UHGV virus genome: UHGV-0338394
DNA: 11,858 nucleotides
Reading direction: 5' to 3' (one strand)
Source of the DNA: a virus
The notes beneath the pieces are model-generated. The model was not told the origin of the DNA. It saw only the letters and a program-made list of their open reading frames with translations, and searched no databases. Positions 112-10,443 of this stretch are shown here, piece by piece; the first letter of the stretch is position 1, and each line of letters begins with the position of its first letter. The position numbers and the translations under genes were made by a program.

Positions 112-330
112 ATGGCAACACATAACGCAACAACCCACACAATCCCCCAATCTGGCTATATCCGACGCTTCCGCCTTGCTGAATTGCTGGGCGTTAGCGT
201 TTCCACCATTGATCGCAAAGTTCGCAATGGGGTTCTGCCGCGCCCGGTAAAGCTGGGCGAGAAGATTACCGCCTTTGATGCGGTAGAGATTAACAACTGG
301 CTGGCAGAGCGTCGCGGGAAGGTGGCCTGA
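112..330 (+). CDS. alpA: AlpA/Vis-family excisionase-type transcriptional regulator (72 aa)
   Basis: Small protein with the AlpA-type HTH signature RLAELLGVSVSTIDRKVRNGVLPRPVKLGEKITAFDAVEINNWL. It is the first gene of a co-directional operon, as in CP4-57/P4-like elements and Gram-negative PICIs. Confidence 0.85.
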   Translation: MATHNATTHTIPQSGYIRRFRLAELLGVSVSTIDRKVRNGVLPRPVKLGEKITAFDAVEINNWLAERRGKVA

Positions 331-1610: not shown

Positions 1611-1785
1611 CCATAATCCGATGCCGGGAAGCCGTTACAAGGATTCGCACGGGGCTGTAGTGACCGTACAGCGCGTCGAGCATAACCGCGTGACCTTTTA
1701 CCGCGAGGGCTATCAGTCGCCATGTGTTCAGCCTTTGGAGAGATTCGTTAAGGAGTTCGTGGAGGTGCGCCGTGATACTGAATGA
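1603..1785 (+). CDS. Small DUF4222-like protein (60 aa)
   Basis: ATG overlaps the upstream stop (ATGCGTAA). The pattern PGSRYKDSHGAVVTVQRVEHNRVTFYREGYQSPCVQPLERF resembles the small DUF4222 proteins common in enterobacterial P4-like prophages. Assigned from memory. Confidence 0.5.
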   Translation: MRNHNPMPGSRYKDSHGAVVTVQRVEHNRVTFYREGYQSPCVQPLERFVKEFVEVRRDTE

Positions 1786-2284
1786 ACCTGCCGCCCAGAA
1801 AGAAGCCTTTAATCTGGCTGGCATGTTGTCAAAAGTTGACATCTGCAACCTTACAAAACCTGATATTGATACCGCAGCGCCCGGAGTTCCGTTATCAGTA
1901 CGCGAGGCGCTTACCCTCAACAAAAAGATGGTGAGCCGTGCACAGGAAAAACTCTTAAAGGGTTACGGTTTTATCTGGTATGACCACCTAGCAGAGAAAA
2001 GCTGTTATAGTCCAAGCGTTGCTGCAAAATCAGCAACCGGGATTGGAACCCCGAACACACTAAGGGCGACACAGACGCCGAAAGCGTCTTTTTTTGCGTC
2101 CGATCACCACGCACATCAAATCAGCGGCCTTGCCCGTACTGTATCTATGGTGGCGTTAGTGGGGCTACGTTCGCGTAGGCCGGTTTCCTTTGTGTCCGGT
2201 AGTTCCAACCCTGCTAACGTCACCGCCACTATTAAGATTGGAACCTTATGCGGTGACTCCTTAAACACAAAGGAGGCTGCCATA
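1786..2284 (+). promoter_or_regulatory. Probable non-coding control region, with a P4-type RNA-immunity-like arrangement of short complementary motifs
   Basis: GATTGGAACC occurs at 2041-2050 and 2236-2245, and its near reverse complement GTTCCAACCC at 2202-2211 lies between them. A UUCG-tetraloop hairpin sits at 2165-2178 and an intrinsic terminator at 2073-2095. The only long ORF across the region (1724-2476) reads through that terminator and has a low-complexity middle section. Confidence 0.35.
2073..2095 (+). terminator. Rho-independent terminator (AGACGC-CGAAA-GCGTCT followed by a T-run)
   Basis: 6-bp GC-rich stem (2073-2078 pairing with 2084-2089), a 5-nt loop, and a 7-T run (2089-2095) whose first T also closes the stem. 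Confidence 0.6.
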
Positions 2285-2476
2285 ATGGCTACTACCCCTA
2301 CCCAAAAACCATCATTTATCTGGTTAATCGCAGCAGTTCGCCGCGATATGCCGACAATTACCGCCAAAATTCACCATATCGCCGCAGAGACTGAGCAGGA
2401 AGCCCGCCGCATTCTGGCGCGGGATCACGTTTGCTTTTTTGCCGGACGTATTCGCACAGGGGGCGCACATGCTTAA
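2285..2476 (+). CDS. Small hypothetical protein (63 aa), first gene of the operon leading to the primase
   Basis: Strong AAGGAGG ribosome-binding site at 2270-2276, 8 nt before the ATG at 2285. Lies immediately downstream of the putative control region. The start is chosen inside the longer ORF 1724-2476. Confidence 0.5.
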   Translation: MATTPTQKPSFIWLIAAVRRDMPTITAKIHHIAAETEQEARRILARDHVCFFAGRIRTGGAHA

Positions 2477-2648
2477 TTACTTCCGTGTTGCAGGATGCGC
2501 CACCGCCCGGAGCGGCGAATTAGTCGAGTTCGTTTATATCGTTGACGCCCGCAGCGCGATCAGCGCCAAAGCTGAGGCGCTAAATCAGGCCAGAAATGAA
2601 CGCCTTTCCCACATCCAGATTACCCGCGTTCGTGAGGTGGCGGCATGA
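2469..2648 (+). CDS. Small hypothetical protein (59 aa)
   Basis: AGGGGG ribosome-binding site at 2456-2461. ATG at 2469 overlaps the upstream stop (ATGCTTAA). Confidence 0.45.
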   Translation: MLNYFRVAGCATARSGELVEFVYIVDARSAISAKAEALNQARNERLSHIQITRVREVAA

Positions 2649-3851: not shown

Positions 3852-4193
3852 ATGATTACTAAAAATTTCCGACTGAATGCGCTGGCGAATAAGTATGCGT
3901 CGGCACTGTATAACCACATTACCTCCACCAGCGGCGGGGACTATTTCATGGTTGATGCGGACGGCCTCGCCGTCCGTGTGGAAATCGTCAATGGAGTAAA
4001 AGGCGTTCGCAGCCTGATCGATAGCTACACACTGGCAGCCATGAAAGTGTCCTACCCGCAGTGGGAAACCGTGGGGATAGAGATTCTTGATCGTTGCGTC
4101 ACTAATGACGGATTGACTGACGTCGGGCGTGAGATATGGCAAAGCATGGTTAAAGACATGGGCGCGACCGTGGCAGGGGGCAACCATGCGTAA
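3852..4193 (+). CDS. Hypothetical protein (113 aa)
   Basis: GAGGGGG ribosome-binding site upstream of the ATG at 3852. The stop overlaps the primase start. Confidence 0.65.
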   Translation: MITKNFRLNALANKYASALYNHITSTSGGDYFMVDADGLAVRVEIVNGVKGVRSLIDSYTLAAMKVSYPQWETVGIEILDRCVTNDGLTDVGREIWQSMVKDMGATVAGGNHA

Positions 4194-6627
4194 TATCGAC
4201 CTTATCCGCGAAGTGACCAGTGCCGCCGCCGGGCGCTGGCCTTATGTGCTGGCTGGATTGTCTATCGACGTGCCTGATTCATCGCGCCGCCATTCTCCAT
4301 GCCCTGCATGTGGTGGGAAAGACCGTTTCAGATTCGACGACAACGGGCGCGGTAGCTTTATCTGCAATCAGTGTGGCGCTGGTGACGGTTTAGACCTGAT
4401 TAAGAAGGTGAACAACTGCGACACCACAGAAGCGGCGAGGCTTGCCGCTGATGTGCTGGGTATTGATTACCGGGCAGCGCAAACCGACCCGGTGGCAGCG
4501 AGCCATAGAAGAGAGCAACTGGAAGCTGACCGCCAGCAGCGTGAGCAGGAGCGCCAGAAACAGGCAGCAGAGGATGCAGAGCAGCGAAGGGCTACGTTTG
4601 CCCGTCTGTATGCCGGAATGCGCCAGAGTGCCACACAGGGCGAATCTGATTACCTGCAATCAAAAGGGCTGACCGGGTTTAAATATCCGGTAATGCCGGA
4701 TGGTTCGTTATTGCTGGAGCTGGTGGACGAATCCGGCGCAGTGGCAGCAGCGCAAACCATTACACCGCAGGGAGAGAAGCGACTCCTGACAGGTTCAGCA
4801 AAGCGCGGGGCATATCACGCCGTAAACGCGCCAGAATCGCCGCAGAGCGTTTTAATTGCCGAGGGGCTGGCGACGGCCCTTTCAGTTCACCTGATGCGCC
4901 CGGACGCGCTGGCAGTGGCAGCAATTGACGCGGGCAACCTGCTACCCGTTGCCGAAGTGATGCGCCGGATATATCCAGCCACGCAGATTATCATTGCCGC
5001 AGATAACGACCACCAGCAGGACGAACAGGCGAACACGGGCAAAGATGCCGCAGAGAAAGCCGCCTTATCCGTGGCTGGCTGGGTGGCGCTGCCGCCGACA
5101 GACTACAAAGCCGACTGGGACGACTACCGCCAGCAAAACGGGCTGGAAGTCGCTACGGCTGCGTTTAACGATTCGATGTACCAGATTCAGGGGGAAGCCG
5201 TGAAACCACAACTACAGGCCATTGCGGGCGGTAAATCCCGCCGTAAAGCCGAAGTCGGAGATATTGCACAAATGGCAGCCAGCCAGAAAGCGCGGTTGCT
5301 TTCATCTCGCTGGGATATGTTGGCGGTCAACCCTGATAGTGGCGCTGTTTACTGCTACGAATCTGGCGTATGGGAGAAGCTACCAGACAGTGAATTAGAA
5401 AGGGTTATGGTGGCAATTTTCGACGAGCACGAAGCCCACTACACCGAAAAGGGGATTAAATCGGTTGTCGCAACCATGAAGCTGCAAATACCGGTAATTG
5501 GTGAGCGGAGCGGGGATCTGATTGGTTTTGATAACGGCGTTTATGACCTCGCCACGCAGACGTTTTCCGCCCATTCGCCGGGTAACTGGCTGATGAACCA
5601 CAATGGGATCACCTACACCCCGCCAGCGCCGGGGGAAAATATTACCACCAGCGCCCCCAATTTTACCCGTTGGCTGAATCATGCAACGGCTGGCGACCAT
5701 CATAAGGCCGAGCGTATCAAAGCAGCCTTGTTTATGGTGCTGGCGAAGCGTCACGACTGGCAGCTATTCATTGAGATAACTGGCGAGGGCGGCAGTGGGA
5801 AATCCGTATTCAGCAGCATAGCAACCACGCTGGCAGGTGAACACAACACCGCCAGCGGTAGCATGATGACGCTGGACACCGCACGGGGACGGGCGCAGTT
5901 CGTAGGGAAAAGCCTGATTATTATGCCTGACCAGACCCGCTACGTTGGAGAGGGTGCGGGGATTAAAGCCATTACGGGCGGCGATCCGGTAGAGATTGAT
6001 GGGAAATATGAAAAGCAGTTCACAACCGTGATAAATGCCGTTGTTATGGCAACCAATAACGAGCCGATGACATTCACGGAGCGAAACGGGGGCATTGCCC
6101 GCCGCCGCGTGATATTCCCGTTTAATAACCCGGTATCAGACGCAGACAAAGACCCGGATTTAACCGCAAAAATCAGGCGAGAAATCCCGGTGATTATCCG
6201 CCACCTGCTAACCACCTTTGCCGACCAGAACAAAGCAAAGGCACTATTACTAGAGCAGCGCGATTCGCAGGAGGCGCTAGAGGTTAAACGCGGCACGGAT
6301 CCGGTTGTCGATATGTGTGCGGCGCTTTTTTTCATGAACGAACCCAAAGGCATGATGATGGGCGGAGGTACATGGGCAGGCCAGCCAGAGCCGAGGACGT
6401 ATCTTTATCATCTTTATCTGGCGTTTATGGAGTATCACGGTTTGGGTAAACCGCTTTCCGTCAATAAGTTTTCACGCGCCATAAAATCAGCAGCAAAAGA
6501 GTACCGAGCCAGCTACCTGACGAGAAGCATTAACGGCAGAGCGCAAACCAACGTTGGCTATAACGAGAAGGCTGAGGAGTTCATGCCCCGTGCTTACGGT
6601 GTGGAGAGCGGGCAGAGTGATGATTGA
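4186..6627 (+). CDS. P4 alpha-type DNA primase-helicase (zinc ribbon, Toprim and SF3 helicase domains), 813 aa
   Basis: Start taken at ATG 4186 (AGGGGG site at 4175-4180) rather than 4129. Zinc ribbon CPACGGKDRFRFDDNGRGSFICNQCG, Toprim acidic residues (VLIAEGLATALS and IIIAADNDHQQDE), Walker A GEGGSGKS, Walker B-like SLIIMPDQ, and SF3 motif C VVMATNNEP. Confidence 0.9.
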   Translation: MRNIDLIREVTSAAAGRWPYVLAGLSIDVPDSSRRHSPCPACGGKDRFRFDDNGRGSFICNQCGAGDGLDLIKKVNNCDTTEAARLAADVLGIDYRAAQTDPVAASHRREQLEADRQQREQERQKQAAEDAEQRRATFARLYAGMRQSATQGESDYLQSKGLTGFKYPVMPDGSLLLELVDESGAVAAAQTITPQGEKRLLTGSAKRGAYHAVNAPESPQSVLIAEGLATALSVHLMRPDALAVAAIDAGNLLPVAEVMRRIYPATQIIIAADNDHQQDEQANTGKDAAEKAALSVAGWVALPPTDYKADWDDYRQQNGLEVATAAFNDSMYQIQGEAVKPQLQAIAGGKSRRKAEVGDIAQMAASQKARLLSSRWDMLAVNPDSGAVYCYESGVWEKLPDSELERVMVAIFDEHEAHYTEKGIKSVVATMKLQIPVIGERSGDLIGFDNGVYDLATQTFSAHSPGNWLMNHNGITYTPPAPGENITTSAPNFTRWLNHATAGDHHKAERIKAALFMVLAKRHDWQLFIEITGEGGSGKSVFSSIATTLAGEHNTASGSMMTLDTARGRAQFVGKSLIIMPDQTRYVGEGAGIKAITGGDPVEIDGKYEKQFTTVINAVVMATNNEPMTFTERNGGIARRRVIFPFNNPVSDADKDPDLTAKIRREIPVIIRHLLTTFADQNKAKALLLEQRDSQEALEVKRGTDPVVDMCAALFFMNEPKGMMMGGGTWAGQPEPRTYLYHLYLAFMEYHGLGKPLSVNKFSRAIKSAAKEYRASYLTRSINGRAQTNVGYNEKAEEFMPRAYGVESGQSDD

Positions 6628-6644
6628 AACTTTTACGGCGGCAC

Positions 6645-6893
6645 TTATCCCTACTGCCCTACTAAAAACGAGACGAGGCCAGACGTAGCAAGGCTTTAAA
6701 CTAGGTAGGGATATATATTTTTATCCCTACTTATCCCTACTTATCCCTACCAAATAAAACAGGCAGCAAAATGCCGTTGAAGTGATTTAGTAGGGATAAG
6801 TAGGGTTATGTAGGGCAACAAAATTGAATGCCTACCAGTCTGAAAGCCTTGCCATTCGTGGCCTGAGCCAGTTAGTAGGGATTGGTAGGGATA
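6645..6893. repeat. Iteron array, probably the replication origin: at least ten copies of TTATCCCTAC / GTAGGGATAA in both orientations
   Basis: Direct copies at 6645-6654, 6721-6730, 6731-6740 and 6741-6750 (a head-to-tail triplet). Inverted copies at 6704-6713, 6790-6799, 6800-6809, 6810-6816, 6875-6883 and 6884-6893. An A-rich spacer lies between the clusters. The array is immediately 3' of the primase gene, as ori/crr is in P4. Confidence 0.7.
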
Positions 6894-6945
6894 TTACACC
6901 CCCAAAAAGATTCTATGGGGGGGTAGCTTATAACGAAGGTGGGCA

Positions 6946-7248
6946 ATGAATACAGAAACCAGCCAGAAAATGACCTATCAGGAGCGTGAAGCATTGAAGG
7001 GGTTTACTGACAAACGCGCATTACAGGGCGACACCCAAAGCCTGCAAATGACCTTGAGGATGATCGCCCACTGGATGAGGCAGCCAGCAGAAATTGGATT
7101 TACAGAATATGCAACACACTGGACGGCAGCACAGGCCGGACGTGATGACGGGAATCACTCGACCGCAGCAATGGCGGAGCAGTGGCCTTTAAGGGAAGAA
7201 ATGAAAATTATCCCCGGAGGTAGTGACTACATGAGGAAATATCTATGA
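6946..7248 (+). CDS. Hypothetical protein (100 aa), first gene of the four-gene accessory operon
   Basis: GAAGGTGGG ribosome-binding site. The stop overlaps the next gene's ATG (ATGA). Confidence 0.6.
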   Translation: MNTETSQKMTYQEREALKGFTDKRALQGDTQSLQMTLRMIAHWMRQPAEIGFTEYATHWTAAQAGRDDGNHSTAAMAEQWPLREEMKIIPGGSDYMRKYL

Positions 7249-7706
7249 CAGCACAAATTTCAGCATACGGGCGGCTGGTGGCAGATCCCCAGACCCGTAC
7301 CACAGCAAACGGTACAAGCATGGCAATGGGCCGGTTAGCGGTGGCACTGCCCTGCCATGCAGCAGAGGGCGGAGAGGTTACTTTCTGGCTGGGCGTGGTG
7401 GCATTCGGCAAACAGGCCGACGCACTGGCAGGACACGTTAAAGGCGATTTAGTCAGTGTTGCCGGAGCGATGCAGATCAATCAGTGGACGGGCAAGGATG
7501 GCGGTACACAGCAAGGTTATCAGGTAGTAGCCGACAGCGTGATCAGCGCCAGAACGGTACGCCCCGGCGGGAAGCGGGCCGAATCAGTCAAAGCAAGCGG
7601 AGCCAGCAGGGGCCACACAACACAATCCGCGCCGGGATGGGAGTTATATAATACCCCTGATGATTTTGACCAACGCCCACCATTCGACGATGAAACGCCA
7701 TTCTGA
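7245..7706 (+). CDS. Single-stranded DNA-binding (SSB) family protein with an acidic C-terminal tail, 153 aa
   Basis: The OB-fold core aligns by eye with E. coli SSB ([15 protein letters not shown] against [38 protein letters not shown] against [33 protein letters not shown] against RKWTDQSGQ). The C-terminus FDDETPF resembles the SSB tail DFDDDIPF. Confidence 0.85.
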   Translation: [153 protein letters not shown]

Positions 7707-7716
7707 GAGGGAAGAT

Positions 7717-8361
7717 ATGAGTACGCAACCCATCATTATTGAGTTCGGCAGCTATCGCTGGCCCAGACATCTTGCAATACATGAAGCAGGTCATGCGATA
7801 GCCGCATGGTTGTTCGGCATACAGGAGGTAGAAATTGCGTTATCGGGTAATAACCGAGTGGCAAAAACCTACCTTAGAGGAGATGTTGATGAATGTGGAG
7901 CTGTAGCGGTATGGCAGCACGGCAACTATCCACGGAATGTGGCTGAGGTTAAGTCTTACAACCTCTCGAATGATGACACCAGGTTACGTCTGATAGACCA
8001 GGTATGCCGGGATATGGTTATCTCTCTAGCTGGTATCGTCGCGCAATCACGCTATACGGGGGATGATATTAACGCACTGATGGAAACGTCCGGGAAAGCA
8101 GACATGAAAAATGTTCGTGATTTATCAGAGGTATACCGGGTGGCTGGTGGAGAGGATGCTGATATACAGAGAATATCCCTTTCCCGTGCTGAGGCGCTGA
8201 TTGCCCTGAAATGGTGGGATGTTATCGCGCTGGCGAAAATACTGGAGAACCGTAACCATATGCCTGCCAGAAACTTCCAGCGCATTATGGGTGATATTGA
8301 CAAGCCTGTACCAAAGCCTATGACGCTGGCTGAACTGGATGAATTGGTGGGTGAAGAATGA
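7717..8361 (+). CDS. Stand-alone HExxH zinc metallopeptidase, FtsH (M41)-like motif HEAGHAI, no AAA+ module, 214 aa
   Basis: GAGGG ribosome-binding site 5 nt before the ATG at 7717. RHLAIHEAGHAIAAWLFG matches the FtsH active site TAYHEAGHAI. The downstream LAGIVAQSRYTGDDINALMETSGKAD resembles the M41 region carrying the third zinc ligand. No Walker motifs are present. Confidence 0.65.
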   Translation: MSTQPIIIEFGSYRWPRHLAIHEAGHAIAAWLFGIQEVEIALSGNNRVAKTYLRGDVDECGAVAVWQHGNYPRNVAEVKSYNLSNDDTRLRLIDQVCRDMVISLAGIVAQSRYTGDDINALMETSGKADMKNVRDLSEVYRVAGGEDADIQRISLSRAEALIALKWWDVIALAKILENRNHMPARNFQRIMGDIDKPVPKPMTLAELDELVGEE

Positions 8362-8708
8362 AGCCATACATTCTGGCAGCCGTCCTGATCTCATCGGCAC
8401 CGGCACTATCTGCTATCCATTGTGGGGGCTTTACCATACAGCCAGACCGTTATCGGACAACGATTAACGGCGATGTGGTTCATATTGTTGATGCGCAATT
8501 TTACGGCGCACCGCGAGACTTTAGCCAGGCCGCCATAAAGTTATTGCCGGATGCCATTACCACTACCGATAGGCAATACCGACTGGAGACGCAGGGAGGC
8601 AATGCCTTGCTTGAGTTGATGACCAGAGAAAACCCGCCACGTGTGCTTAATCGTGAGCGCTGCGATGCCGGGTTAACAAGATTCGGTTGGTACACTTCTG
8701 CGCCGTGA
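8358..8708 (+). CDS. Predicted secreted/periplasmic protein with an N-terminal signal peptide, 116 aa
   Basis: ATGA overlap with the peptidase gene. N-terminus MKPYILAAVLISSAPALSA has the form of a Sec signal peptide with an Ala-x-Ala cleavage site. Confidence 0.6.
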   Translation: MKPYILAAVLISSAPALSAIHCGGFTIQPDRYRTTINGDVVHIVDAQFYGAPRDFSQAAIKLLPDAITTTDRQYRLETQGGNALLELMTRENPPRVLNRERCDAGLTRFGWYTSAP

Positions 8709-8892
8709 TGTTCGTTCCGAGCGCAGCCTAAAATCAACGGCGTGACGCGGGCGATTCGCACCACAACCACACAGGGCGTCATAGAACGGGATAGACTTCT
8801 GCGACAATTTGCATTCGCCGCCAATATAGCAAGCCGTCCACATCAAGCAATAAACTATCACCGGGAGGGGGTAGTCAAATCTCTACAGCCCT

Positions 8893-8926
8893 GACTGTCC
8901 GGGACTGCCCGCCCCATCGTTTTTTT
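8893..8926 (+). terminator. Possible weak terminator after the four-gene operon
   Basis: GC-rich segment GTCCGGGACTGCCCGCCCC followed by a 7-T run (8920-8926). The stem is imperfect, and the T-run could instead pair with the downstream A-run. Confidence 0.25.
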
Positions 8927-8986
8927 ATACCCGCAAAAAATGAAATTTAATCCGGGCGTGTTTCATCCTTCCAGAGGGTATGACGT

Positions 8987-9172
8987 ATGACACCACGCGA
9001 AATAGCCTTATTGACCATCGCCAAACTTGAGCACGGAGGCCACCAGCTTACACAGGCAGATCAACGGGAGATAGAACGCTCAGTTAATGCCGATATAGCC
9101 CGGCGCGACAGGTTCCGCGAAATGATGCGAGCACCTGCCTACCAGTGGAAGAAGCCAGCGCCGCGCAGGTAG
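8987..9172 (+). CDS. Small hypothetical protein (61 aa)
   Basis: AGAGGG ribosome-binding site 8 nt upstream of the ATG. Charged, helical-looking sequence. Could be spurious. Confidence 0.4.
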   Translation: MTPREIALLTIAKLEHGGHQLTQADQREIERSVNADIARRDRFREMMRAPAYQWKKPAPRR

Positions 9173-9229
9173 ATATGGGATTATTCCACATGTAACTTAT
9201 GCGTATTAAGCAAATTTCCTTTATTCACC

Positions 9230-9259
9230 TTTACAGAATTGTGAGTACGTCAGTATCGT
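9230..9259 (+). promoter_or_regulatory. Candidate sigma70 promoter for the PRiA4_ORF3-like gene
   Basis: TTTACA at 9230-9235, an 18-bp spacer, and TATCGT at 9254-9259, in an AT-rich intergenic region. AGGA ribosome-binding site at 9284-9287 before the ATG at 9293. Confidence 0.3.
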
Positions 9260-9292
9260 TATCCTTCCGATTCGCATTTATTCAGGATTTGC

Positions 9293-9835
9293 ATGTACCA
9301 GCTAAAGATAACCATCCGAGACAGCAAACCACCTATATGGCGGCGTGTGCTGGTTCCAGAGCAAATCCCCTTTAGTAAACTTCATGCCGTGATCCAGTTA
9401 GCTTTTGGCTGGAATGACGAACACCTGTATATGTTCGAGAAAGGGCGTAAAGGTGATCCAGGTAGCGAGTATCACGTATGGGGTGAGGATGAAAGCATGG
9501 GTAACGCGGCAATCACGCCACTATGGGCGGCGCTCCAGAATGAGGGTGACAAGCTGGTTTATACGTATGACTTTGGCGACTGGTGGGATTGCGTCATTGT
9601 GCTGGAGAAGCAAACACACGATACGAGTAATCAGCCCATTAGCTGCCTGCGTGGGAAAGGCACCACCCCGGCGGAAAACTCAGGCGGCTTGCATGGTTAC
9701 AATGAATTGCTATTACAGGCCAGAGAGTCTGATAATCCTGAGCAGGCCGAGATCCACAATTTCCTGATGCTGGATATTGAACGCCGGGTTTACGACCTGA
9801 GCCGCATCAACGACAGATTGCAGGCTATTAACTGA
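9293..9835 (+). CDS. PRiA4_ORF3-like protein (plasmid pRiA4b ORF-3 family), 180 aa
   Basis: N-terminal signature LKITIRDSKPPIWRRVLVPEQIPFSKLHAVIQLAFGWNDEHLYMF matches my recollection of the family's PpIWRR...LH..IQ.aFgW..HLh.F pattern. Assigned from memory. Confidence 0.75.
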   Translation: MYQLKITIRDSKPPIWRRVLVPEQIPFSKLHAVIQLAFGWNDEHLYMFEKGRKGDPGSEYHVWGEDESMGNAAITPLWAALQNEGDKLVYTYDFGDWWDCVIVLEKQTHDTSNQPISCLRGKGTTPAENSGGLHGYNELLLQARESDNPEQAEIHNFLMLDIERRVYDLSRINDRLQAIN

Positions 9836-10187
9836 CCCGCATGTATTCACCTGATATTGCGTTATCAGCGCCGCCAGTATCGCGCATAACAGCGCACTGA
9901 CCTGGTAAACCGTAGCGCACGACCGTTGCGTTAGTTTCACCGCCGCGCCGTATCTGGCGCGATTCATACACTATCACCCGCTCAAGCAACCCACCAGCAA
10001 CCATGCTTTCCAGTGTGCGCCGGGTTGATTCGATCTGGTGGCGCTTATCGAACGACACCATGCCATGAAGCAGGTAGGCCACACCCGACACATCGAACGG
10101 CGGCGCACCAATCTCACCAGTCACCCATTCGAGGTTATCCGGTTCAAAGTAGCTAAGTATCTCTTTTTTGCGGCTGGTCATTCTCAT
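9828..10187 (-). CDS. Hypothetical protein, possibly a winged-helix DNA-binding protein (119 aa), convergent with and overlapping the PRiA4_ORF3-like gene
   Basis: Minus-strand ORF whose 3' end overlaps the 3' end of 9293-9835 by 8 nt. An AAGGAA ribosome-binding site lies upstream on the minus strand. The segment RRTLESMVAGGLLERV is reminiscent of a winged-helix recognition region, a weak inference. Confidence 0.55.
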   Translation of the reverse strand: MRMTSRKKEILSYFEPDNLEWVTGEIGAPPFDVSGVAYLLHGMVSFDKRHQIESTRRTLESMVAGGLLERVIVYESRQIRRGGETNATVVRYGLPGQCAVMRDTGGADNAISGEYMRVS

Positions 10188-10233: not shown

Positions 10234-10443
10234 CGCAAAAGATAAGAGGCCAGAACAGCAAGCATGAGAGCATAAAATGAGCAGCCAAAGACAGCACCTC
10301 AAAATACCGTGTACACAAGGGTGTACCTACTTAGAAAACGCATTACAAGGAATCCAGTAACCACGCAGCCTAGAGACTCCTACTCAATAAACAGATTCAA
10401 TTGAGTAACTCGTAACACTAATTCTTACTTTTCAGCCTTCACA

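What the first reader, a model, noticed from the sequence alone, without database searches (positions are those of the whole stretch)
7245..7706. Element-encoded SSB paralog retains an SSB-like acidic C-terminal tip (FDDETPF)
Seen in sequence: the core aligns with E. coli SSB, and the C-terminus ends in FDDETPF, close to the host tail DFDDDIPF. Established knowledge: the host SSB tail is the docking site for many replication and repair partners. Inference: an extra SSB carrying this tail could compete for or redirect the host SSB interactome, or recruit the adjacent peptidase to ssDNA. The linker is short compared with host SSB.
Basis: partly seen in the sequence, partly recalled or inferred. 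Interest (0 to 1): 0.5.

Follow-up and report, generated by a model that had tools for sequence, protein, structure and literature searches.

The report
Phage-satellite SSB with canonical acidic tail
This is an ordinary single-stranded-DNA-binding protein gene in the replication module of a phage-satellite-type island in E. coli. Its host-like acidic tail is real and conserved, but that is normal for SSBs carried by mobile elements.

Summary
ORF 7245..7706 (+) encodes a 153-aa SSB: a PF00436 OB core, a disordered linker of about 40 residues, and a C-terminus PPFDDETPF. That tail keeps the Pro-Phe-COOH end and the acidic cluster of E. coli SSB (MDFDDDIPF).

The gene lies in a 12.9-kb integrase/AlpA/P4-family-primase island inserted at the stop codon of yicC. 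This is a Gram-negative PICI / P4-related satellite. The SSB gene sits just 3' of an iteron origin (9x GTAGGGWT), which itself follows the primase-helicase gene. The order primase-ori-ssb recurs in about 45 related loci across Enterobacterales. Relatives occur in 1663 of 5426 complete E. coli genomes, including an O157:H7 island with its own capsid genes.

The gene is under purifying selection (dN/dS 0.04-0.29). The tip is conserved in kind: 24 of 30 non-redundant homologues end in Phe.

It is only 25% identical to host SSB, so it is a separate lineage carried by mobile elements and not a recent duplicate. Published work already places PICI SSBs in the replication category, and host-like tips are known in phage SSBs.

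The idea that the tail recruits the neighbouring peptidase is not supported. That gene, a stand-alone FtsH-like M41 domain, is a sporadic cassette. Competition with the host SSB interactome is plausible but untested. Verdict: ordinary, low interest.

The parts
7245..7706 (+). ssb gene of the island: 153-aa SSB-family protein (RefSeq WP_045177224.1 in the near-identical locus L001)
   Evidence: ORF. PF00436 54.7 bits. PHROG 44. PGAP name 'single-stranded DNA-binding protein'. dN/dS 0.04-0.29 against 10 homologous loci.
7245..7556 (+). OB-fold ssDNA-binding core (residues 1-104). W48, F54 and W81 align with EcSSB W54, F60 and W88.
   Evidence: AF2 pLDDT 74-91 over residues 1-100, five-strand barrel plus helix 55-62. 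Foldseek hits to SsbA/SsbB/EcSSB. Alignments.
7557..7676 (+). Intrinsically disordered linker (residues 105-144, about 40 aa). It is charged and variable, with a semi-conserved GW(E/D)xY patch and a nearly invariant (F/Y)DQ just before the tip.
   Evidence: pLDDT below 50 over residues 105-153. Column entropy 1.64 bits against 0.50 in the core.
7677..7703 (+). Acidic C-terminal tip PPFDDETPF (residues 145-153)
   Evidence: Sequence. Tail census of 120 homologues and 30 non-redundant ones. Comparison with EcSSB ...MDFDDDIPF.
4186..6627 (+). Primase-helicase (Zn-ribbon, Toprim, D5_N, DUF5906/SF3 helicase, Pox_D5 C-terminal domain), P4 family. This is the replication initiator of the island. The longest ORF starts at 4129.
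   Evidence: Pfam. TIGR01613 111.1 bits against cut-off 108.7. PHROG 2249. PGAP.
6643..6894 (.). Iteron field, the putative origin of replication. Nine exact GTAGGGWT copies form two oppositely oriented sets around an A+T-rich spacer.
   Evidence: 9 copies found, 0.36 expected, 0 of 200 shuffles reach 9. GC 0.42-0.43. Reiterated 8-mers occur at the same position in 24 other loci. This matches the published PICI ori layout (PMC6092414).
6946..7248 (+). orf100, unknown function. Its stop overlaps the ssb start (ATGA), so it is probably co-translated with ssb. It is present in only a few related loci.
   Evidence: No Pfam or NCBIfam hit. Weak PHROG 4935 match.
7717..8361 (+). Neighbouring accessory gene: a 214-aa stand-alone FtsH-like (M41) metallopeptidase domain with HEAGH. 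It is not part of the replication module.
8358..8708 (+). orf116, a small protein with a hydrophobic signal-like N-terminus. It travels with the M41-like gene as a two-gene cassette.
112..330 (+). AlpA-family regulator/excisionase of the island
   Evidence: PF05930 33 bits against cut-off 21.
2005..2230 (+). P4/P1-type immunity RNA region (c4-a1b1 targets, isrK, C4 antisense RNA)
   Evidence: Rfam matches above gathering scores.
10392..10408 (.). Right junction of the island (attR-like CAGATTCAATTGAGTAA, an imperfect copy of the yicC 3' end). K-12-like yicC-dinD intergenic DNA follows from 10409.

Best explanation
The gene encodes a functional SSB of the canonical bacterial type: an OB core, a disordered linker and an acidic tip. 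It belongs to the replication module of a Gram-negative PICI / P4-related phage satellite integrated at yicC.

Proposed mechanism: on induction, the long rightward operon (alpA through primase, ori, orf100 and ssb) is expressed. The primase-helicase melts and unwinds the iteron origin immediately upstream of ssb. The island's own SSB coats the exposed single strands. Through its free Pro-Phe-COOH acidic tip it hands them to host replisome and restart proteins that read SSB-Ct (Pol III chi, DnaG, PriA and others). This makes satellite replication less dependent on the host SSB pool, which a helper phage is also consuming.

Shown here: family membership, architecture, tip conservation, purifying selection, and constant linkage to primase plus ori.

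Inferred: ssDNA binding, oligomeric state, timing of expression, and which partners the tip binds.
For: - SSB family and fold.
- Three of the four EcSSB DNA-stacking aromatic residues are kept.
- The tip keeps P-F-COOH plus acidic residues, the features chi, ExoI and RecQ recognise (PMC3045619). The tip is conserved across the family while the linker drifts.
- dN/dS is 0.04-0.29.
- Island context: integrase, AlpA, C4/isrK immunity RNA, P4-family primase, and an empty site in K-12.
- The iteron origin lies between primase and ssb.
- The same primase-iterons-ssb order occurs in 24 of the 25 loci where a primase ORF longer than 550 aa ends within 400 bp upstream of ssb. The iteron sequence differs with primase type.
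- SSB and primase similarity are only weakly coupled (Spearman 0.17). An SSB 95% identical to this one is paired with a different primase class in L003. This argues that the tip serves a constant partner, i.e. the host, and not a cognate primase.
- The family is abundant: 746 protein clusters, and 1663 of 5426 E. coli genomes with up to 6 copies. It is present in an O157:H7 island that carries its own capsid genes.
- The literature already files PICI 'Primase, SSB and DUF5906' genes, colocalised with the ori, under replication (PMC10111431).
Against: - There are no experimental data on this clade.
- Phage P4 itself has no ssb (own knowledge), and the PICI papers read here list only int, alpA, pri-rep and ori as core genes. 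An element SSB is therefore not obligatory for this type of replicon.
- Several related loci carry truncated or frameshifted ssb genes (L038, L041, L043, L044, L049), so the gene is dispensable at least in decaying elements.
- The EcSSB tetramer-interface residues are not conserved, so the oligomeric state is unknown.
- The TIGR00621 score is just below its trusted cut-off.
Confidence: 0.72

Rival explanations
1. Host-interactome competitor or decoy. The primary role of the satellite SSB would not be its own replication. Instead it would titrate or redirect host SSB-interacting proteins (ExoI/SbcB, RecQ, RecO, PriA, chi), or phage proteins that read SSB-Ct. The effect would be helper-phage interference, protection of satellite ssDNA from nucleases, or modulation of SSB-sensing defence systems.
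For: - The tip keeps all partner-binding determinants.
- Phage SSB-like proteins with host-like tips do affect host pathways. One with FDDDIPF is required to trigger DRT10, and its authors propose competition with SbcB (bioRxiv 10.64898/2026.04.29.721553).
- Plasmid SSB damps SOS in transconjugants (PMC11288057).
- The gene swaps freely between primase types.
Against: - The only constant genomic partner is primase plus ori.
- There is no PADLOC match.
- Nothing in the sequence separates this role from plain replication support, and the two are not mutually exclusive.
Confidence: 0.12
2. The tip is read mainly by the island's own primase-helicase. The comparison is with T7 gp2.5, whose acidic tail ending in Phe binds the T7 polymerase and helicase-primase (own knowledge), and with HK620 SSB, whose tail recruits its cognate Sak4.
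For: - ssb lies constantly next to the primase gene and ori.
- The HK620 SSB tail NDYPPF is required for Sak4 loading (PMC5928155).
Against: - The same tail, and near-identical SSBs, are combined with unrelated primase classes and iteron types. SSB and primase similarity are barely correlated (Spearman 0.17).
- The tip resembles the host tip more closely than a private interface would need to.
Confidence: 0.12
3. Adaptor for the neighbouring peptidase. The SSB tip would recruit the adjacent stand-alone FtsH-like (M41) peptidase to ssDNA.
For: - The two genes are 10 nt apart in one operon in the window, L016 and L019.
- The peptidase family is found only in islands of this kind, often close to ssb.
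Against: - Adjacency occurs in 2 of 45 related loci.
- A 91%-identical peptidase is paired with a 63-65%-identical SSB, which indicates cassette insertion and not co-evolution.
- The same tail occurs with PerC or ProQ downstream.
- The peptidase occurs without any SSB (L051), and next to a frameshifted, tail-less SSB (L049).
- Its constant partner is orf116.
Confidence: 0.03
4. Decaying passenger: a non-functional remnant of an SSB gene with no current role.
For: Truncated or frameshifted copies exist in some loci.
Against: - This copy is intact.
- dN/dS is 0.04-0.29 in both the core and the C-terminal part.
- OB-core column entropy is only 0.50 bits across genera.
- The tip is conserved.
Confidence: 0.02

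Closest known systems
E. coli chromosomal SSB (P0AGE0; PDB 1eqq/4mz9)
   Same: It has the same three-part architecture: OB core, disordered linker and acidic tip. It has equivalents of W54, F60 and W88. Its tip has Phe at -7, Asp-Asp, and Pro-Phe-COOH at the end.
   Different: Identity is only 25%. The L23 loop is shorter and lacks W40. H55, Y78, K7/E80 and Q76 are not kept. The linker is about 40 aa and charged, against 56 aa rich in Gly/Gln/Pro. The gene is carried by an island and is probably expressed only on induction.
SSB genes of Gram-negative PICIs and capsid-forming PICIs (replication zone of GN-PICIs, PMC10111431; O157:H7 roxA-phoQ island, L053)
   Same: Same protein family (DNA-level match). 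Same position after the primase and an intergenic gap. Same int/alpA/primase backbone. The C-terminus also ends in IPF.
   Different: This island has no recognisable capsid or packaging genes. Downstream of ssb it carries an M41-like peptidase cassette instead of PerC and head genes. I did not verify that L053 is the published EcCIEDL933.
Satellite phage P4 replicon (alpha primase-helicase plus ori/crr iterons, C4-type immunity RNA)
   Same: P4-family primase C-terminal domain (TIGR01613). An iteron origin next to the primase gene. C4/isrK RNAs, an Icd-like region, and AlpA/Vis-type excision control.
   Different: P4 encodes no SSB (own knowledge). No sid/psu/delta homologues were detected among the ORFs scanned.
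Phage HK620 SSB and other phage SSBs with host-like tips
   Same: These are SSBs encoded by mobile elements, distant from host SSB, whose last six residues (NDYPPF) resemble DDDIPF and are functionally required (PMC5928155).
   Different: HK620 SSB is paired with a Sak4 recombinase, and no recombinase is present here. No close phage homologue of this clade exists in the phage collection; the best matches are Staphylococcus phage SSBs at 35-37%.
Conjugative-plasmid SSBs (F/IncF and IncI leading-region ssb)
   Same: An extra SSB supplied by a mobile element to cover its own ssDNA stage. It modulates host responses such as SOS (PMC11288057).
   Different: They come from a different lineage and setting (leading region with psiB, expressed or translocated at conjugation). 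Most of the 958 plasmid matches are below 60% identity.
Firmicute SsbA/SsbB (S. aureus 5xgt/5yyu, B. subtilis 6bhw)
   Same: These are the best sequence and structure matches for the OB core (31-36% identity). They have a hydrophobic residue where EcSSB has H55.
   Different: They come from a different phylum and are chromosomal. SsbB-type proteins lack the acidic tip (own knowledge).

Membership tests
Bacterial SSB family (Pfam PF00436 / TIGR00621) | OB-fold core matching the family profile above the curated threshold | tested here: met
   PF00436 scores 54.7 bits against cut-off 26. TIGR00621 scores 50.8 against 53.95, just under, but aligns end to end. PHROG 44 E 6e-30.
Bacterial SSB family (Pfam PF00436 / TIGR00621) | Three-dimensional OB fold superposable on solved SSBs | tested here: met
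   AF2 model with confident residues 1-104. Foldseek probability 1.00 and TM (target-normalised) 0.65-0.83 to SsbA/SsbB/EcSSB.
Bacterial SSB family (Pfam PF00436 / TIGR00621) | Aromatic ssDNA-stacking residues (EcSSB W40, W54, F60, W88) | tested here: inconclusive
   W48, F54 and W81 align with W54, F60 and W88. W40 is absent because the loop is shorter. Three of four are kept, and the effect on binding mode is unknown.
Bacterial SSB family (Pfam PF00436 / TIGR00621) | Disordered linker followed by an acidic tip ending in Pro-Phe (SSB-Ct) | tested here: met
   The protein ends PPFDDETPF. Residues 105-153 are disordered. The tip is conserved in the family.
Bacterial SSB family (Pfam PF00436 / TIGR00621) | Homotetramer (or equivalent four-OB assembly) | not testable with these tools
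   Only monomer prediction is available. The EcSSB interface residues H55, Y78 and E80 are replaced by L49, S71 and A73, as in Firmicute SsbA-type proteins.
Bacterial SSB family (Pfam PF00436 / TIGR00621) | High-affinity, sequence-independent ssDNA binding | not testable with these tools
   This needs a gel shift or fluorescence titration.
Gram-negative PICI / P4-related phage satellite | Integrase next to a specific attachment site; discrete island absent from related genomes | tested here: met
   In the near-identical locus L001 a tyrosine integrase follows yicC. The island is 12.9 kb. K-12 has an empty yicC-dinD site. A short imperfect repeat of the yicC 3' end lies at the right junction. 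The integrase lies outside the window.
Gram-negative PICI / P4-related phage satellite | AlpA-family regulator heading a co-oriented operon | tested here: met
   PF05930 scores 33 bits against cut-off 21 for ORF 112..330. All island genes from alpA to orf116 are on the + strand.
Gram-negative PICI / P4-related phage satellite | Primase/replication initiator followed immediately by an iteron origin (two iteron sets flanking an AT-rich spacer) | tested here: met
   Primase. Nine GTAGGGWT copies in two opposed sets at 6643-6894. Layout as described in PMC6092414.
Gram-negative PICI / P4-related phage satellite | No phage structural or lysis genes of its own (classical PICI), or the sid/psu/delta hijacking genes (P4-like) | tested here: inconclusive
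   No structural, lysis or sid/psu/delta families were found among the ORFs scanned. Several ORFs have no match at all, and not every small ORF was scanned.
Gram-negative PICI / P4-related phage satellite | Helper-phage-dependent induction, packaging and high-frequency transfer | not testable with these tools
   This needs induction and transduction experiments, and the helper is unknown.
Anti-phage defence systems (PADLOC) | Match of the SSB or its neighbours to a known defence-system protein model | tested here: not met
   No PADLOC hit for SSB, the M41-like protein, orf100 or orf116. There are only weak DRT-primase-like hits for the primase.

The most novel reading that the evidence does not exclude
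The satellite SSB clade, present in roughly a third of E. coli genomes, is kept mainly as a host-mimicking hub and not for bulk ssDNA coating. Its SSB-Ct-like tip would capture host SSB-interacting proteins (chi/PriA for origin firing, or ExoI/RecQ/RecO), or helper-phage proteins, at satellite DNA. This would let the satellite out-compete its helper for the replisome, or evade or trigger SSB-sensing immunity. In the subset of islands that carry it, the tip might also serve the adjacent stand-alone FtsH-like peptidase.
Probability: 0.1. Interest if true: 0.5.

Novelty: new member of a known kind. Interest (0 to 1): 0.2.

Why it matters
It matters little on its own. It does show that PICI/P4-type satellites of Enterobacterales routinely carry their own SSB as the first gene after the replication origin. 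That SSB comes from a lineage distinct from the host's and from known coliphage SSBs, yet it keeps the host-type docking tip. This gives a clean, testable entry point into how satellite primase-helicases couple to the host replisome, and into whether satellites compete with helper phages for SSB partners. It is also relevant to defence systems that sense foreign SSBs. No surprising biology is demonstrated here.

Tried and rejected
- PADLOC scan of the SSB and seven neighbours: nothing for the SSB or the peptidase. A defence-system reading therefore has no support.
- Profile search of the HEXXH family against PDB sequences: no meaningful hit. Only the fold comparison identified it as FtsH/M41-like.
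- Phage collection search for close SSB relatives: none above 37% identity. Recent capture from a sequenced coliphage is therefore not supported.
- Long direct repeats flanking the island: none of 14 nt or more at the junctions. The boundaries came from comparison with the K-12 empty site instead.
- An exact attR pattern taken from L001 is not in the window, because the window's junction differs by a few bases.
- Promoter/terminator scan of 6500-9400: no + strand promoter-like site upstream of ssb or anywhere in the ori-ssb-peptidase stretch (the only + strand site is at 9230-9259, far downstream), and no + strand terminator, with fewer sites than in shuffles. An ssb-specific promoter is therefore not claimed.
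- Literature searches for a functional study of a PICI SSB found only a categorisation as 'replication'.
- My first neighbourhood script missed the peptidase in L016 and L019 because of its ORF-start rule. This was corrected with tblastn coordinates.
- A recent duplication of host ssb was considered and rejected (25% identity).
- Heterotetramer formation with host SSB was considered unlikely because the interface residues differ. This is inference only.
Full report
**1. The observation**

The ORF listing and the raw sequence show an ATG..TGA ORF at 7245..7706 (+). It encodes 153 aa and ends ...[14 protein letters not shown].

The evidence that it is an SSB is as follows.
- Pfam SSB (PF00436) matches residues 4-99 at 54.7 bits, against a cut-off of 26.
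- TIGR00621 aligns residues 7-153 to model positions 9-165 of 165, so the alignment runs through the tail. Its score of 50.8 bits is just under the cut-off of 53.95.
- PHROG 44 (SSB) gives E 6e-30.
- Solved SSBs match, the best being S. aureus SsbA/SsbB at E 2e-10 and E. coli SSB at 2e-5.

BLASTP against the window protein gives 25% identity and aligns the two C-termini.

An AlphaFold2 model built from 18 homologues has a confident OB barrel over residues 1-104 and a low-confidence, disordered stretch over 105-153. Foldseek returns SSB crystal structures only.

So the description is accurate. The word 'paralog' holds only at family level.

**2. Is the tail more than chance?**

Among the 120 best homologues the commonest endings are [34 protein letters not shown] and QPFDDEAQF.

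I reduced the set to 30 sequences below 85% mutual identity.
- 24 end in Phe and 3 in Leu.
- 27 have 2-3 acidic residues in the last eight.
- D142, Q143, P146 and D148/D149 are almost invariant.
- The preceding linker has a mean column entropy of 1.64 bits, against 0.50 in the OB core.

More distant members in other genera end DDDIPF, EDEIPF, DDVPF, DDEPPF and GDGIPF.

The residues kept are the ones shown experimentally to matter for partner binding. For chi, ExoI and RecQ these are the last Pro-Phe with a free carboxylate in a hydrophobic pocket, and upstream Asp residues on a basic rim. ssb-113 is P176S (PMC3045619).

The linker is about 40 residues, against 56 in EcSSB (PMC7145534 abstract). 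It is charged, not Gly/Gln/Pro-rich.

In the core, W48, F54 and W81 align with EcSSB W54, F60 and W88. W40 is lost with a shortened loop. The EcSSB interface residues H55, Y78, E80 and Q76 are replaced by L49, S71, A73 and L69, which resembles Firmicute SsbA. The oligomeric state cannot be read from this.

**3. What carries it**

The stretch 6900-8750 is 100% identical to E. coli 2017.17.03CC.

In that genome the region is a 12.9-kb island between yicC and dinD. Its genes run in this order:
- tyrosine integrase
- a hypothetical protein
- AlpA-type HTH regulator
- AntA
- DUF4222
- Icd-like protein
- several unknowns
- P4-family primase
- orf100
- SSB
- two hypotheticals
- PRiA4_ORF3

K-12 has an uninterrupted yicC-dinD site. 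The island begins right after the yicC stop codon. In the window it ends at 10408 with an imperfect copy of the yicC 3' end.

In the window:
- ORF 112..330 is AlpA family.
- Positions 2005-2230 hold the c4-a1b1, isrK and C4 antisense RNAs of the P4/P1 immunity type.
- The primase has Zn-ribbon, Toprim, D5_N, DUF5906 and Pox_D5 domains, and passes TIGR01613.

This is the published constellation of Gram-negative PICIs: int, alpA, pri-rep, then ori (PMC6092414). The immunity region is P4-like. No capsid, packaging or sid/psu/delta genes were recognised.

**4. The constant neighbour of ssb is the origin**

Between the primase stop (6627) and orf100 (6946) there are nine exact GTAGGGWT copies. The expected number is 0.36, and 0 of 200 shuffles reach nine. 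They form two oppositely oriented sets around an A+T-rich spacer. This is the layout described for PICI origins.

A scan of one genome per species returned 45 related loci in Enterobacterales.
- In 25 of them an ORF longer than 550 aa ends within 400 bp upstream of ssb. By its length and position, and by homology to the window primase in about half of these loci, I take this ORF to be the primase-helicase gene.
- In 24 of those 25 gaps an 8-mer is reiterated 3-12 times. The sequence differs from locus to locus (ATCCCTAC, GAGACAACA, TGAACCAAC, TCGGTTCA, ACGGGTTA, GGTGTTCA...).

So primase, iterons and ssb form a conserved cassette.

SSB similarity and primase similarity are only weakly correlated (Spearman 0.17). 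An SSB 95% identical to this one sits behind a different primase class in L003. The SSB is therefore an exchangeable generic part. This fits a tip that addresses constant host partners better than a tip tailored to a cognate primase.

The gene is under purifying selection, with dN/dS 0.04-0.29 against ten loci, in both the core and the C-terminal part.

**5. Distribution**

- The protein search found 746 clusters, all named sources being Enterobacterales.
- DNA-level relatives occur in 1663 of 5426 complete E. coli genomes, with up to six copies per genome. Almost all are chromosomal.
- One example is an O157:H7 island between roxA and phoQ. It has integrase, a DUF927 primase, SSB and PerC, followed by a full HK97-type head and terminase set. 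This is the capsid-forming PICI architecture. Its SSB ends GGDDPYGDGIPF.
- There is no close homologue in 50,697 phage records (best 35-37%, Staphylococcus phages).
- Plasmid matches are mostly below 60% identity.

**6. The neighbouring 'peptidase'**

The true start is 7717 (MSTQ..., as in all homologues), 10 nt after the ssb stop.

Its linkage to ssb is positional and not functional.
- It directly follows ssb only in L016 and L019. There it is 91% identical to the window copy while the SSB is only 63-65% identical.
- The genes after ssb in the other loci are PerC (10 loci), ProQ/FinO (7 loci) or singletons.
- The peptidase occurs one gene away from ssb in Dickeya and in an island with no primase or ssb (L051). 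In Serratia it sits next to a frameshifted, tail-less ssb.
- Its constant companion is orf116.

The hypothesis that the tail recruits the peptidase therefore has no comparative support.

**7. Mechanism proposed**

Shown: a canonical SSB architecture with a conserved host-type tip, under selection, as the first gene after the satellite origin.

Inferred:
- After induction, the co-oriented operon is transcribed. No separate promoter or terminator was detected around the ori.
- The primase-helicase opens the iteron origin.
- The island SSB coats the ssDNA and, through its tip, brings in host SSB-Ct readers (chi, DnaG, PriA).
- This buffers satellite replication against competition for host SSB during helper infection.

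Rivals:
- A primarily competitive or decoy role towards host or phage SSB partners. There are precedents: a phage SSB-like protein with FDDDIPF that triggers DRT10, and plasmid SSB damping SOS.
- A tip read by the island's own primase. The precedent is the HK620 SSB tail and Sak4.
- A peptidase adaptor.
- A decaying gene.

The last two are disfavoured by the data above. The first two are not excluded and are compatible with a replication role.

**8. Comparison with what is known, and novelty**

RefSeq already names the protein 'single-stranded DNA-binding protein'. [quoted passage not shown] Host-like tips on SSBs encoded by mobile elements are documented.

I found no functional study of this satellite SSB clade in the searchable library.

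The finding is therefore a correctly observed but ordinary feature: an uncharacterised member of a known kind.

Interest is 0.2. The most novel reading still open is a host-mimicking hub used to win the replisome, or to manipulate SSB-dependent immunity. I give it a probability of about 0.1.

Noticed in passing
[not shown]
   Followed up: partly
window 8358..8708 (+); also L016, L019, L038, L043, L027, L032: orf116 is a small protein with a signal-peptide-like N-terminus. It overlaps the stop of the M41-like gene and co-occurs with it across loci, even where the SSB differs. The pair looks like a mobile two-gene accessory cassette of unknown function.
   Followed up: partly
window 6643..6894: Nine GTAGGGWT iterons in two opposed sets around an AT-rich spacer form the probable satellite origin. 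Related loci have different iteron words at the same place, apparently matched to primase type. One (L025) has GGTGTTCA, which from memory resembles the P4 ori repeat.
   Followed up: yes
window 2005..2230 (+): Rfam c4-a1b1, isrK and C4 antisense RNA matches, all above gathering score. This is a P4/P1-type RNA immunity region inside the Icd-like stretch.
   Followed up: no
window 1724..2648 (+): PGAP annotates one 909-nt 'Icd-like' CDS in the near-identical locus L001. In the window, the ORF listing splits this stretch into two ORFs (1724..2476 and 2439..2648). This could be a frameshift, or an over-long annotation across the RNA genes.
   Followed up: no
window 10392..10408 and L001 4606..4626 / 17493..17504: The island is inserted exactly at the yicC stop codon. 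The right junction carries a short imperfect copy of the yicC 3' end (CAGATTCA...TAA). K-12 MG1655 has the empty site.
   Followed up: yes
window 9293..9835 (+) and 9828..10187 (-): A PRiA4_ORF3-family protein (E 8e-43) and a convergent 119-aa ORF of unknown function lie at the right end of the island. Both recur in several related loci and may be further cargo.
   Followed up: no
L049 5571..6026 (Serratia); L038 and L043 (Rosenbergiella): The ssb genes of related islands are frameshifted or truncated, with the OB end and tail lost, while neighbouring genes stay intact. The SSB is therefore dispensable in some islands.
   Followed up: partly
L053 (E. coli O157:H7, roxA-phoQ island): A member of the same SSB family lies in an island that carries its own HK97-type capsid, portal, protease and terminase genes (capsid-forming PICI architecture). 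It is followed by PerC.
   Followed up: partly
window 7245..7703, residues 70-127: PHROG 28350 ('unknown function', 71 positions) matches the C-terminal half of the OB domain at E 1e-20. That PHROG is probably a family of SSB fragments and not a separate protein.
   Followed up: no
window 7200..7700 versus 7700..8400: G+C is 0.55-0.59 across ssb but 0.47-0.51 in the adjacent peptidase cassette. This is consistent with mosaic assembly of the post-origin zone.
   Followed up: no
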